This document shows, in pieces, positions 5,685 through 5,840 of a stretch of DNA of 6,280 nt. Under the pieces are notes generated by a model that saw only the letters and a list, made by a program, of their open reading frames with translations, ran no database searches and was not told where the DNA came from. Position numbers and translations under genes: made by a program. Position 1 is the stretch's first letter. Every line of letters begins with the position of its first letter. The DNA is from a virus (taxonomy: Duplodnaviria > Heunggongvirae > Uroviricota > Caudoviricetes): the IMG/VR virus record IMGVR_UViG_2671180435_000010. The stretch is one strand, 5' to 3'.

Positions 5685-5696
5685 TTTAACGGTGTT

Positions 5697-5749
5697 CTAC
5701 GTGAATAAAGCAAAGTTAATACCCACACCAAAAATTATTTTTCACGTAG
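5697..5749. repeat. 9-bp perfect inverted repeat CTACGTGAA / TTCACGTAG separated by 35 nt
   Basis: Arms at 5697-5705 and 5741-5749 read directly from the sequence; A-rich spacer. In the intergenic region after the tape-measure gene. Confidence 0.3.
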
Positions 5750-5779
5750 CTCACGCTTAACAGAGAAAATACATATATA

Positions 5780-5823
5780 TCAAAGGCTTGGTTAAAAATG
5801 ATTAAAATACACTAAGCCTTTGA
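5780..5823. repeat. 10-bp perfect inverted repeat TCAAAGGCTT / AAGCCTTTGA separated by 24 nt
   Basis: Arms at 5780-5789 and 5814-5823; ends 4 nt before the RBS AAAGGAG (5828-5834) of the downstream gene; a TATATAT run (5774-5780) abuts the left arm. Confidence 0.3.
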
Positions 5824-5840
5824 AATCAAAGGAGAATTTA

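What the first reader, a model, noticed from the sequence alone, without database searches (positions are those of the whole stretch)
5685..5840. Two perfect inverted repeats in the 156-bp gap after the tape-measure gene
CTACGTGAA/TTCACGTAG (5697-5705, 5741-5749) and TCAAAGGCTT/AAGCCTTTGA (5780-5789, 5814-5823) are 9- and 10-bp perfect palindromic pairs with 35- and 24-nt spacers, the second ending just before the RBS of the next gene. Neither is followed by a U-run, so they are not standard intrinsic terminators. Widely spaced half-sites in an intergenic gap could be operators for a dimeric regulator or mRNA structures controlling expression of the downstream tail gene. A TAGCTCA motif at 5747-5753 looked tRNA-like but no T-arm or acceptor stem follows.
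Basis: seen in the sequence. Interest (0 to 1): 0.4.

Follow-up and report, generated by a model that had tools for sequence, protein, structure and literature searches.

The report
Two-module spacer between tail genes
The two inverted repeats are real, conserved and separable: the first is a worn copy of a 58-base palindrome found widely on plasmids and genomic islands, and the second is a conserved stem-loop in front of the next tail gene.

Summary
Both perfect inverted repeats are at the stated coordinates, and having two of them is unlikely by chance (0.2% of shuffles).

The window is not a lytic phage. It belongs to a diverse family of 10-12 kb E. coli integrative islands carrying Felix-O1-like tape-measure (TMP) and Dit-like genes. 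In Felix-O1 phages these genes abut, so the 156-bp gap is extra DNA. It has two modules.

**IR1.** It belongs to a 58-nt palindrome, CTACGTGA...TCACGTAG(C).
- Canonical copies occur in at least 1,458 plasmids and many Gammaproteobacteria, usually just upstream of Xer-like tyrosine-recombinase genes. No Rfam family matches.
- In the islands it is always present between TMP and Dit, and sometimes also before TMP.
- Its left and right halves reassort, so it marks a recombination junction.

**IR2.** It is island-specific and the best-conserved stretch locally (0.93-0.98 identity).
- It forms a 13-bp stem on the sense strand only.
- Folding predicts that it holds an anti-Shine-Dalgarno segment away from the Dit ribosome-binding site.

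Neither repeat is a terminator, tRNA, consensus promoter or repeated operator. The functions are inferred, not shown. IR1 is something broader and apparently undescribed.

The parts
3504..5684 (+). Tape-measure protein gene. Its stop TGA (5682-5684) overlaps an ATG at 5681-5683.
   Evidence: ORF list; PF20155 TMP_3, E = 2e-21; phrog_4036, E = 4e-93.
5680..5688 (+). AATGATTTA, left copy of a 9-nt direct repeat that brackets the gap (right copy 5840-5848). It looks like the ancestral ATGA stop/start overlap, duplicated.
   Evidence: repeat D4. In Felixounavirus the TMP stop and the next gene's start overlap or abut with no gap. The full 9-nt repeat occurs only in islands that combine this TMP end with this leader; others keep 7 nt or none.
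5686..5760 (+). Module H1: the island copy of the 58-nt palindromic element (unit 5697-5754) plus outer pairing GGTG/CACG. Core arms are CTACGTGAA (5697-5705) and TTCACGTAG (5741-5749); the asymmetric centre TACCCACAC is at 5720-5728.
   Evidence: The element is present in every TMP-Dit gap of the island family. The 58-nt span is shared with hits in many genera.
5755..5765 (+). GCTTAACAGAG linker that follows H1 in all island copies. Before TMP, and in type-B Dit islands, it runs straight into the ribosome-binding site.
5766..5840 (+). Module H2: the island-specific leader of the type-A Dit gene. Stem 5780-5792/5811-5823 (13 bp, including G5790-U5813), 18-nt loop.
   Evidence: Mean pairwise identity is 0.93-0.98 across 16 distinct islands, above both flanking genes.
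5798..5815 (+). Loop of H2 holds a near-copy of the Dit start (ATGATT+AAAA+TACACTAA versus ATGATTTACACTAA at 5841-5854). It reads as a 5-codon mini-ORF, MIKIH*.
   Evidence: (repeats D2, D8). The ATG is lost in L015, so a coding role is doubtful.
5817..5832 (+). Alternative hairpin CCTTTG (5817-5822) / CAAAGG (5827-5832). It would bury AAGG of the Shine-Dalgarno sequence and forms only when the left arm of H2 is absent.
   Evidence: P(unpaired) of 5829-5832 is 0.81-0.93 in transcripts that include 5780-5792, and about 0 in transcripts that start at 5800 or 5812.
5829..5843 (+). Shine-Dalgarno AAGGAG (5829-5834) and start codon ATG (5841-5843) of the Dit-like gene.
   Evidence: phrog_3721 from residue 1.
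5841..6280 (+). Dit-like (distal tail / 'phage baseplate') gene. Here it is frameshifted by a unique 74-nt deletion at 5986/5987, so the ORF stops at 5993. From 5865 onward it is 92-94% identical in DNA to Felixounavirus.
   Evidence: PF21821 Dit_like on the intact APEC O18 homologue.
3431..3493 (+). Pre-TMP gap: an intrinsic terminator (3431-3466 plus T-run), then AACACTTAAAGAGG (3480-3493), which resembles the right-end remnant of a second H1 copy that is intact at this position in other islands.

Best explanation
The 156-bp gap is a two-module intercistronic leader. It lies where Felix-O1-type phages have an overlapping or abutting TMP-stop/Dit-start junction.

Module 1 (IR1, 5686-5760) is a degenerate copy of a 58-nt palindromic cassette: arms CTACGTGA / TCACGTAG(C), a fixed span and an asymmetric centre. 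Canonical 16-19-bp-stem copies are spread over gammaproteobacterial plasmids, chromosomes and islands, typically just upstream of Xer-like tyrosine-recombinase genes. In this island family it is the one constant piece of the TMP-Dit spacer, and it is where flanking modules (TMP ends, leaders, Dit types) are exchanged.

Module 2 (IR2, 5766-5840) is an mRNA stem-loop specific to the type-A Dit leader. Its left arm (ATCAAAGG, identical to the sequence at the ribosome-binding site) pairs with an anti-Shine-Dalgarno right arm (CCTTTGA). This keeps the real ribosome-binding site open, so Dit is translated independently of TMP.

Shown here: the anatomy, the conservation, the distribution, the reassortment and the predicted folding alternatives.

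Inferred: that H2 acts on translation; that H1 is recognised by a protein or recombination machinery rather than being a passive homology patch; and that the gap arose by insertion with duplication of the junction.
For: - **The gap is extra DNA.** Felixounavirus relatives have TMP and the next gene overlapping or abutting. Window 5656-5900 (245 nt) maps to 94 nt in 200+ phage records. A 9-nt repeat, AATGATTTA, sits exactly on the TMP stop and on the Dit start.
- **The gap is modular.** Across about 24 distinct islands the spacer is [variable leader] + H1 + GCTTAACAGA + either [H2 + type-A Dit start] or [short ribosome-binding site + type-B Dit start].
- **The H1 family is widespread.** The pattern scan gives 56 loci in one-genome-per-species representatives, nearly all with a 58-nt span. 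There are 1,458 plasmid records, 687 covering at least 80% of a canonical query, and 187 E. coli genomes, mostly on plasmids.
- **H1 sits next to recombinase genes.** A tyrosine recombinase lies 18-350 nt downstream in Leclercia, Pectobacterium, Serratia and E. coli IncFIB plasmids and in Alteromonas, Moritella and Colwellia loci.
- **H1 matches no described RNA family.** No Rfam family, including for canonical copies.
- **H1 is a recombination junction.** There are 8 left-half and 8 right-half types in 15 combinations, and all four combinations of the common types occur. Leader and right-hand modules also reassort. A second direct copy precedes TMP in 7 of about 27 islands, and the window keeps only a remnant there.
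- **H2 is constrained.** It is the most conserved segment, 0.93-0.98 against 0.5-0.76 for the TMP 3' end and 0.78-0.89 for the Dit 5' end. Seven variant cells keep pairing through G-U or A-U on the sense strand and three break it. G5790-U5813, present in 14 of 16 loci, would be an A-C mismatch on the other strand.
- **Island H1 stems show sense-strand bias.** 20 G-U against 1 A-C.
- **Folding supports a translation role for H2.** The Shine-Dalgarno sequence is open with H2 and sequestered without its left arm.
Against: - There are no transcript, protein-binding or recombination data. Every functional step is inference.
- The window's own H1 stem is weak (9 + 3 bp around a 35-nt loop), so an RNA-structural role is doubtful. 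In the wide family G-U and A-C mismatches are balanced (28 vs 24), giving no RNA-strand signal.
- H1 arms were partly fixed by the search pattern, so their invariance in pattern-derived sets is by construction. Only the independent gap extraction shows it without that bias.
- Reassortment could be ordinary homologous recombination at a short conserved patch.
- The 9-nt junction repeat is complete only in a subset of islands.
- The islands encode serine, not tyrosine, recombinases, so no cognate protein for H1 is identified in cis.
- H2's high identity could reflect a recent sweep together with the Dit 5' end. Part of it (5811-5843) was also the anchor used to collect the loci.
Confidence: 0.45

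Rival explanations
1. H1 is an active site-specific recombination site. Xer-like tyrosine recombinases, supplied in trans by plasmids or the host, cut in its asymmetric centre. Two direct copies make the TMP gene an exchangeable cassette, comparable to integron cassettes or pdif modules.
For: - Canonical copies lie immediately upstream of tyrosine-recombinase genes beside plasmid replication genes, where resolution sites usually lie.
- The arms are conserved, the span is fixed at 58 nt, and the centre is asymmetric and G-rich.
- Crossovers map between the left and right halves.
- Direct copies flank TMP in 7 islands.
Against: - A query built as the predicted H1 x H1 deletion junction (TMP lost) found 0 of 480 matching E. 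coli genomes covering it.
- The geometry differs from known tyrosine-recombinase cores, which have 10-14-bp repeats around a 6-8-bp spacer (PMC5587640).
- No tyrosine recombinase is encoded in the islands.
- The island copies have degenerate stems.
Confidence: 0.17
2. Both repeats act only as RNA. H1 is a processing or stabilising hairpin at the 5' end of the Dit (and TMP) message, analogous to intercistronic RNase III or stabiliser stem-loops of T7-type phages, and H2 tunes translation.
For: - H1 always lies 7-30 nt upstream of a ribosome-binding site in the islands, in one orientation.
- Island copies show 20 G-U against 1 A-C on the sense strand.
- Canonical copies have 16-19-bp stems.
- The left arm occurs just before the gene 18.5 ribosome-binding site in about 20 T7-like phages.
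Against: - The window copy pairs only 9 + 3 bp.
- The arms are conserved in sequence rather than in pairing strength, and inner-stem mismatches are common.
- A loop length fixed at 58 nt overall is unusual for an RNA hairpin.
- The wide family shows no strand bias.
- The T7-like match has BLAST E = 6.
Confidence: 0.2
3. One reading: the repeats are operators for a dimeric regulator, and/or the gap carries a regulated promoter for the downstream tail gene.
For: - The half-sites are palindromic.
- A TAAAAT hexamer lies in the H2 loop (5803-5808, read directly from the sequence).
- An intrinsic terminator upstream of TMP shows that transcription in this operon is punctuated.
Against: - No promoter reaches 9 of 12 matches in the gap.
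- The half-sites do not recur elsewhere in the window above chance.
- Spacers of 35 and 24 nt are atypical for simple dimeric operators.
- H2 pairing relies on G-U, which has no meaning in duplex DNA.
Confidence: 0.08
4. The repeats are non-functional hitch-hikers. H1 is a decaying selfish palindrome, H2 is a by-product of duplications at the junction, and both are conserved only because the islands diverged recently.
For: - H1 is dispensable in the pre-TMP gap: absent or reduced to a remnant in many islands.
- Stems have decayed in island copies.
- The H2 loop and left arm are visibly duplicated pieces of the Dit start region.
Against: - The islands are otherwise 80-92% identical with heavy mosaicism, yet H2 is 0.93-0.98 identical and H1 is present in every TMP-Dit gap.
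- Substitutions in H2 preferentially keep pairing.
Confidence: 0.1

Closest known systems
Dispersed intergenic palindromes of enterobacteria (ERIC/IRU, REP/BIME). Named from my own knowledge.
   Same: A short imperfect palindrome in transcribed intergenic regions, found in either orientation, with sequence conserved across genera and present or absent at a given site.
   Different: Low copy number (1-3 per replicon). Concentrated on plasmids and islands next to recombinase genes rather than scattered on chromosomes; in the E. coli collection 265 of 289 places are on plasmids. Fixed 58-nt span with an asymmetric conserved centre. Sequence similarity to ERIC or REP was not tested.
Promoter-early stem-loop (PeSL) cassettes and 'boundary sequences' at mosaic joints of T4-type and lambdoid phages. 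Named from my own knowledge.
   Same: A short conserved non-coding stem-loop between genes that coincides with the points where neighbouring modules are swapped.
   Different: No promoter consensus is associated with it. The element is shared with plasmids and chromosomes far outside phages.
Plasmid multimer-resolution sites next to tyrosine-recombinase genes (rfsF/ResD of F, loxP/Cre of P1).
   Same: Canonical copies of the palindrome lie directly upstream of a Xer-like recombinase gene beside the replication initiator gene.
   Different: Known cores are 10-14-bp inverted repeats around a 6-8-bp spacer (PMC5587640). Here, conserved arms of 9-19 bp are 20-35 nt apart. The window's island has no tyrosine recombinase.
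Anti-anti-Shine-Dalgarno leader switches in bacterial and phage mRNAs. Named from my own knowledge.
   Same: H2 has three elements: a look-alike of the ribosome-binding site, an anti-Shine-Dalgarno segment and the real site. The two predicted structures are mutually exclusive.
   Different: No ligand, temperature or upstream-translation trigger is identified. The open form is both the minimum-energy fold and the first to be transcribed, so it may be a constitutive opener rather than a switch.
Vibrio PLE-type satellites of lytic myoviruses.
   Same: The surrounding island is small, is integrated by a large serine recombinase, and carries genes related to those of a lytic myovirus (PLE literature listed).
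   Different: PLE membership was not tested. The island's other ORFs match no Pfam, PHROG or NCBIfam family. No helper-phage dependence is shown.

Membership tests
Intrinsic (Rho-independent) terminator | G+C-rich stem with a short loop, followed by a T-run | tested here: not met
   The terminator scan finds none in 5685-5840. Loops are 35 and 18-24 nt, and no T-run follows either stem.
tRNA / tmRNA | Cloverleaf detectable by ARAGORN | tested here: not met
   0 genes in the window.
Any Rfam 15 RNA family | Covariance-model match | tested here: not met
   No hit in the gap at E up to 10. No hit on eight loci with canonical palindromes at E up to 1, nor on a full island.
Sigma-70 promoter | -35 and -10 hexamers with 16-18-nt spacing and at least 9 of 12 matches | tested here: not met
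   None of the 12 sites reported for the window lies in the gap.
Operator set of a phage or island repressor | The same half-site repeated at several regulatory positions | tested here: not met
   GCTACGTGAA and TCAAAGGCTT with up to 2 mismatches occur no more often than in shuffles outside the gap. Only this window was searched, not the whole island.
Tyrosine-recombinase core site (lox / rfsF / dif type) | Two 10-14-bp inverted binding arms around a 6-8-bp crossover spacer | tested here: not met
   Arms are 9 bp (window) to 16-19 bp (canonical), separated by 35 to about 20 nt. Geometry of known sites taken from PMC5587640.
Tyrosine-recombinase core site (lox / rfsF / dif type) | A cognate recombinase gene adjacent to the site | tested here: inconclusive
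   Met for canonical copies on plasmids and in marine Gammaproteobacteria. Not met in the window's island family, which encodes serine recombinases.
Integron attC site | R''/R' core sites RYYYAAC ... GTTRRRY at the ends of an imperfect hairpin with extrahelical bases | tested here: not met
   Read directly from the sequence. ATTTAAC fits R'' on the left, but no GTTRRRY follows the right arm (GCTCACGCTTAACAG). Canonical stems are fully paired.
Miniature inverted-repeat transposable element (MITE) | Terminal inverted repeats plus a target-site duplication; filled and empty sites | tested here: inconclusive
   A 9-nt direct repeat brackets the whole gap in the window, but it is incomplete or absent in other islands. 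Filled, remnant and empty states exist in the pre-TMP gap. No transposase is linked to it.
RNase III processing site | About two turns (roughly 20 bp) of double-stranded RNA | tested here: not met
   The window copy pairs 9 + 3 bp. Canonical copies reach 16-19 bp. Cleavage itself cannot be tested with these tools.
Translational leader with Shine-Dalgarno-sequestering alternative | Mutually exclusive pairings, one of which covers the Shine-Dalgarno sequence, and conserved | tested here: met
   Predicted P(unpaired) of 5829-5832 is 0.81-0.93 with the H2 left arm and about 0 without it. All three segments are invariant or wobble-compatible in 16 islands. An effect on translation was not tested.

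The most novel reading that the evidence does not exclude
The 58-nt palindrome (GCGCTACGTGAAATCTG ... G-rich centre ... CAGATTTCACGTAGCGC) is an undescribed recombination site used by a family of Xer-like tyrosine recombinases on gammaproteobacterial plasmids and islands. Copies that have escaped into other mobile elements, such as this satellite-like island where they flank the tape-measure gene, serve as portable crossover points that let tail-gene modules be swapped between elements.
Probability: 0.17. Interest if true: 0.75.

Novelty: new variant of a known kind. Interest (0 to 1): 0.5.

Why it matters
- **A candidate recombinase site.** If IR1's family is a protein-recognised site, it would define the missing target for recombinase genes that sit next to the replication genes of more than a thousand clinical IncF-type and related plasmids. 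It would also explain how short conserved palindromes seed mosaicism in phage-derived islands.
- **A simple testable leader.** IR2 gives an experimentally easy example of how an island uncouples two tail genes that its relatives translate as a coupled pair.
- **An unstudied island family.** The surrounding islands are present in about 9% of complete E. coli genomes and are built around Felix-O1-like TMP and Dit genes. They look like an unstudied satellite or interference element.

Tried and rejected
- **Described RNA families.** Rfam searches of the window, canonical loci and a full island found nothing.
- **tRNA.** None.
- **Promoter or terminator in the gap.** None.
- **Literal sequence search of the literature for the arms.** Only chance primer matches.
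- **rfsF/ResD as the identity of the palindrome.** Rejected on geometry.
- **Frpo single-stranded-DNA promoters of plasmid leading regions.** Considered because one copy lies in a leading region. Not pursued, because from memory Frpo is several times longer, and because most plasmid copies lie next to recombinase and replication genes.
- **Similarity to dif (XerC arm), P1 parS box A (ATTTCAC), CRESS-virus or rolling-circle nick motifs (GTATTAC in the centre), and 16S rRNA.** All were noticed by eye, none goes beyond 6-8 nt, and all are treated as unproven.
- **Function of the other window ORFs.** Pfam, PHROG and NCBIfam give no hits. The '327-aa ORF' is an artefact of masked N runs.
- **More island copies from viral contigs.** Only 6 loci were returned.
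- **The TMP-less H1 x H1 deletion junction.** None found in 5,426 complete E. coli genomes.
- **Literature on satellites with tape-measure genes.** No description of this island was found.

Full report
**1. Observation**

The two perfect inverted repeats exist exactly as described: CTACGTGAA/TTCACGTAG at 5697-5705/5741-5749 and TCAAAGGCTT/AAGCCTTTGA at 5780-5789/5814-5823. They are the only perfect repeats of 9 bp or more with spacers up to 60 nt in the gap, and two of only four in the whole window.

Two such repeats arise in 0.2% of 5,000 dinucleotide shuffles of the gap; one arises in 5.8%. Folded as RNA, 5685-5845 is 3.9 standard deviations more stable than shuffles, and both repeats form the predicted stems.

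Neither stem is followed by a T-run. No terminator-like or promoter-like site is called in the gap, there is no tRNA, and there is no Rfam match. The flanking genes are a tape-measure protein (3504-5684; PF20155) and a Dit-like 'baseplate' protein starting at ATG 5841 (phrog_3721; PF21821 on an intact homologue).

**2. Context: an island, not a phage**

Against 50,697 phage records, only 5865-6274 matches well (92-94%, Felixounavirus).

Against complete E. coli genomes, the window matches 499 of 5,426 chromosomes at 80-93% with heavy mosaicism. None is identical. The gap itself is found in 471 genomes.

Annotated examples show a 10-12 kb integrated element. It carries a small serine recombinase, an adenine methyltransferase, a helix-turn-helix protein, small ORFs, sometimes an HNH endonuclease, a 711-nt ORF, a 68-aa ORF, TMP, the Dit-like gene and a convergent large serine recombinase. 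Insertion sites are wrbA, tonB, yecD/DUF72 or lafU-dinB.

**3. The gap is extra DNA**

In Felixounavirus (garuso, HK3) the TMP stop and the next gene's start overlap or abut. Window 5656-5900 (245 nt) aligns to 94 nt in more than 200 phage records.

In the window a 9-nt repeat, AATGATTTA, lies on the TMP stop (5680-5688, containing an ATGA overlap) and again on the Dit start (5840-5848). This suggests the junction was duplicated when the spacer arose. The repeat is complete only in islands with this particular TMP end and leader, so this step is inference.

**4. The gap is modular**

I extracted the TMP-Dit spacer from all fetched islands by gene anchors, not by the repeat itself. This gives about 24 distinct spacers of 86-234 nt. 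Each has this layout:
- a variable leader of 10-90 nt;
- a 58-nt unit, CTACGTGA...T(C/T)ACGTAGC(T)CAC (H1);
- the linker GCTTAACAGA;
- then one of two endings: a 75-nt module containing IR2 plus a type-A Dit start (MIY...), or a short ribosome-binding site plus a type-B Dit start (MFDTKQ...).

H1 is therefore the constant element, and IR2 travels with one Dit type.

**5. IR1 belongs to a large family**

A degenerate pattern for the arms hit 56 loci in one-genome-per-species representatives. Hits of other lengths, in unrelated phyla, are what chance predicts for this pattern. About 45 hits share the same 58-nt span and extended arms: GCGCTACGTGAAATCTG ... CAGATTTCACGTAGCGCAC. They come from Alteromonas, Moritella, Colwellia, Shewanella, Citrobacter, Yersinia, Erwinia, Rahnella, Raoultella, Serratia plasmids and E. 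albertii.

A canonical query finds 1,458 plasmid records, 687 covering at least 80% of it, and 187 E. coli genomes, with 265 of 289 places on plasmids.

On plasmids the element lies directly upstream of a Xer-like tyrosine-recombinase gene beside the RepB/RepFIB initiator:
- E. coli, 290 nt upstream;
- Leclercia, 18 nt;
- Pectobacterium, 242 nt;
- Serratia, about 300 nt, with a small ORF in between.

About 22 of roughly 50 genomic loci also have such a recombinase within 30-350 nt, though 11 of these are one orthologous Alteromonas locus. Other copies lie between housekeeping genes or in a plasmid leading region.

Family properties:
- positions 5-13 of each arm are invariant, partly by construction of the pattern;
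- the stem extends to 16-19 bp, with some A-T/T-A covariation and many mismatches;
- the span is fixed;
- the centre is asymmetric, with a G-rich motif (GGGGTAT-like) on one strand.

When the wide family is oriented by that centre, G-U-type and A-C-type mismatches are balanced (28 vs 24). That argues against selection on one RNA strand and for recognition at the DNA level. No Rfam family matches canonical copies.

**6. IR1 in the islands**

Independent extraction shows the core arms in every spacer, with only outer-stem variants in a few. The window copy is degenerate: 9 + 3 bp of pairing around a 35-nt loop.

Seven of about 27 distinct islands carry a second, directly oriented copy between the 68-aa ORF's terminator and the TMP ribosome-binding site, 2.15-2.27 kb upstream. 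Other islands lack it, and the window keeps only AACACTTAAAGAGG.

Left and right halves of the element reassort freely: 8 x 8 types in 15 combinations, with all four gametes present for the common types. Leaders, TMP ends and Dit types reassort across it as well. H1 is thus a demonstrated mosaic junction.

Whether crossovers are site-specific is open. A query mimicking the H1 x H1 deletion product found no TMP-less island in 480 matching genomes. That weighs against frequent excision.

Island stems show 20 G-U against 1 A-C on the sense strand, which is compatible with an RNA role. However, the sequences are not independent.

**7. IR2**

Across 16 distinct type-A islands, mean pairwise identity is 0.92-0.98 for 5741-5840. 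The last 140 nt of TMP score 0.5-0.76 and the first 140 nt of Dit score 0.78-0.89. Only 5811-5843 was constrained by the anchor used to collect the loci.

The stem is 13 bp (5780-5792/5811-5823). It includes G5790-U5813, which is meaningful only on the sense strand. Of the variant cells, seven keep pairing (G-U, U-G, or G-U changed to A-U) and three break it.

The left arm repeats the 8 nt at the ribosome-binding site: ATCAAAGG at 5779-5786 and 5825-5832. The right arm (CCTTTG) can alternatively pair with CAAAGG at 5827-5832.

Partition-function folding gives the Shine-Dalgarno bases 0.81-0.93 probability of being unpaired when the left arm is present, and about 0 when the transcript starts at 5800 or 5812.

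The loop is a near-copy of the Dit start (ATGATT+AAAA+TACACTAA), which again points to duplication at the junction. It reads as a 5-codon ORF, but one island has lost the ATG.

**8. Interpretation**

The best-supported reading is that the spacer is a composite leader. H2 is an mRNA element that keeps the Dit ribosome-binding site accessible and makes Dit translation independent of TMP, which in the phage relatives is coupled by overlap. H1 is a copy of a widespread palindromic cassette, probably recognised by a protein, that in these islands acts as the crossover point for module exchange.

The rival readings are given with their own confidences:
- H1 as an active site-specific recombination site;
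- purely RNA-level roles;
- operator or promoter;
- non-functional relic.

**9. Novelty**

Intercistronic stem-loops and ribosome-binding-site-opening leaders are ordinary. Two things appear not to be described: the 58-nt palindrome family, with its association with plasmid recombinase genes, and the island family itself. Rfam has no match and the literature searches found nothing.

I rate the finding a new variant of a known kind, of moderate interest.

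Noticed in passing
window 2244-2499 and 2559-2590: Runs of N (masked sequence). The '327-aa ORF' 2191-3174 is an artefact of the mask. In unmasked relatives (L004 7957-8450) the region is a non-coding stretch of about 490 nt followed by a 711-nt ORF. PGAP labels that ORF 'transposase', but it has no Pfam, NCBIfam or PHROG hit.
   Followed up: partly
window 2070-2098 and downstream to about 2460: A near-consensus sigma-70 promoter (TTGACA, 17 nt, GATGAT with an upstream TG) heads the long non-coding stretch. 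This could be an island-encoded non-coding RNA or a long leader. Rfam finds nothing in the homologous region of L004.
   Followed up: partly
window 5986/5987: A clean 74-nt deletion inside the Dit-like gene, compared with all 15 other type-A islands and with Felixounavirus. It shifts the frame, so the ORF ends at 5993. The gene is a pseudogene in this genome, or this is an assembly error.
   Followed up: yes
whole window; L003-L007, L079-L088: The window belongs to a family of 10-12 kb E. coli integrative islands (499 of 5,426 complete genomes). They are integrated by large serine recombinases at wrbA, tonB, yecD/DUF72 or lafU-dinB and are built around Felix-O1-like TMP and Dit genes. Most other ORFs have no family match. 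The family looks like an undescribed satellite or tail-interference element.
   Followed up: partly
window 5865-6274: The Dit-like gene is 92-94% identical in DNA to Felixounavirus phages, while the adjacent TMP and the rest of the island are too diverged for megablast. This implies recent gene exchange between islands and lytic phages, with its left boundary close to the H2 module.
   Followed up: partly
window 3431-3466: A strong intrinsic terminator (15-bp stem plus T-run) lies between the 68-aa ORF and TMP, only about 35 nt before the TMP start. TMP and Dit expression therefore seems to need read-through or antitermination.
   Followed up: no
L092 1198-1222 (phage BA14), L093 952-976 (phage Sibilus), L094 41-55 and 8040-8100 (phage PP99): The left arm of the palindrome (GGTGACGCTACGTGAAATCTGAGAAA) occurs in about 20 T7-like phages just before the ribosome-binding site of gene 18.5. 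There the G-rich 'centre' serves as the Shine-Dalgarno sequence. In PP99 it follows a repeated promoter-like 19-mer and also lies in the terminal repeat. BLAST E = 6, so ancestry by chance is not excluded.
   Followed up: partly
L067 3312-5166; L019: In Alteromonas a conserved chromosomal locus has two palindromes about 1 kb apart inside roughly 1.8 kb of ORF-free DNA upstream of a 400-aa Xer-like recombinase. A further 14-bp perfect palindrome (TTCACGCATGATAA/TTATCATGCGTGAA) lies between them and the gene.
   Followed up: no
window 5635-5645: AGTTCACGCAG near the 3' end of TMP resembles the H1 right arm (TTCACGTAG) and is complementary to the left arm at 8 of 9 positions. It is within chance expectation for matches with 2 mismatches.
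   Followed up: yes
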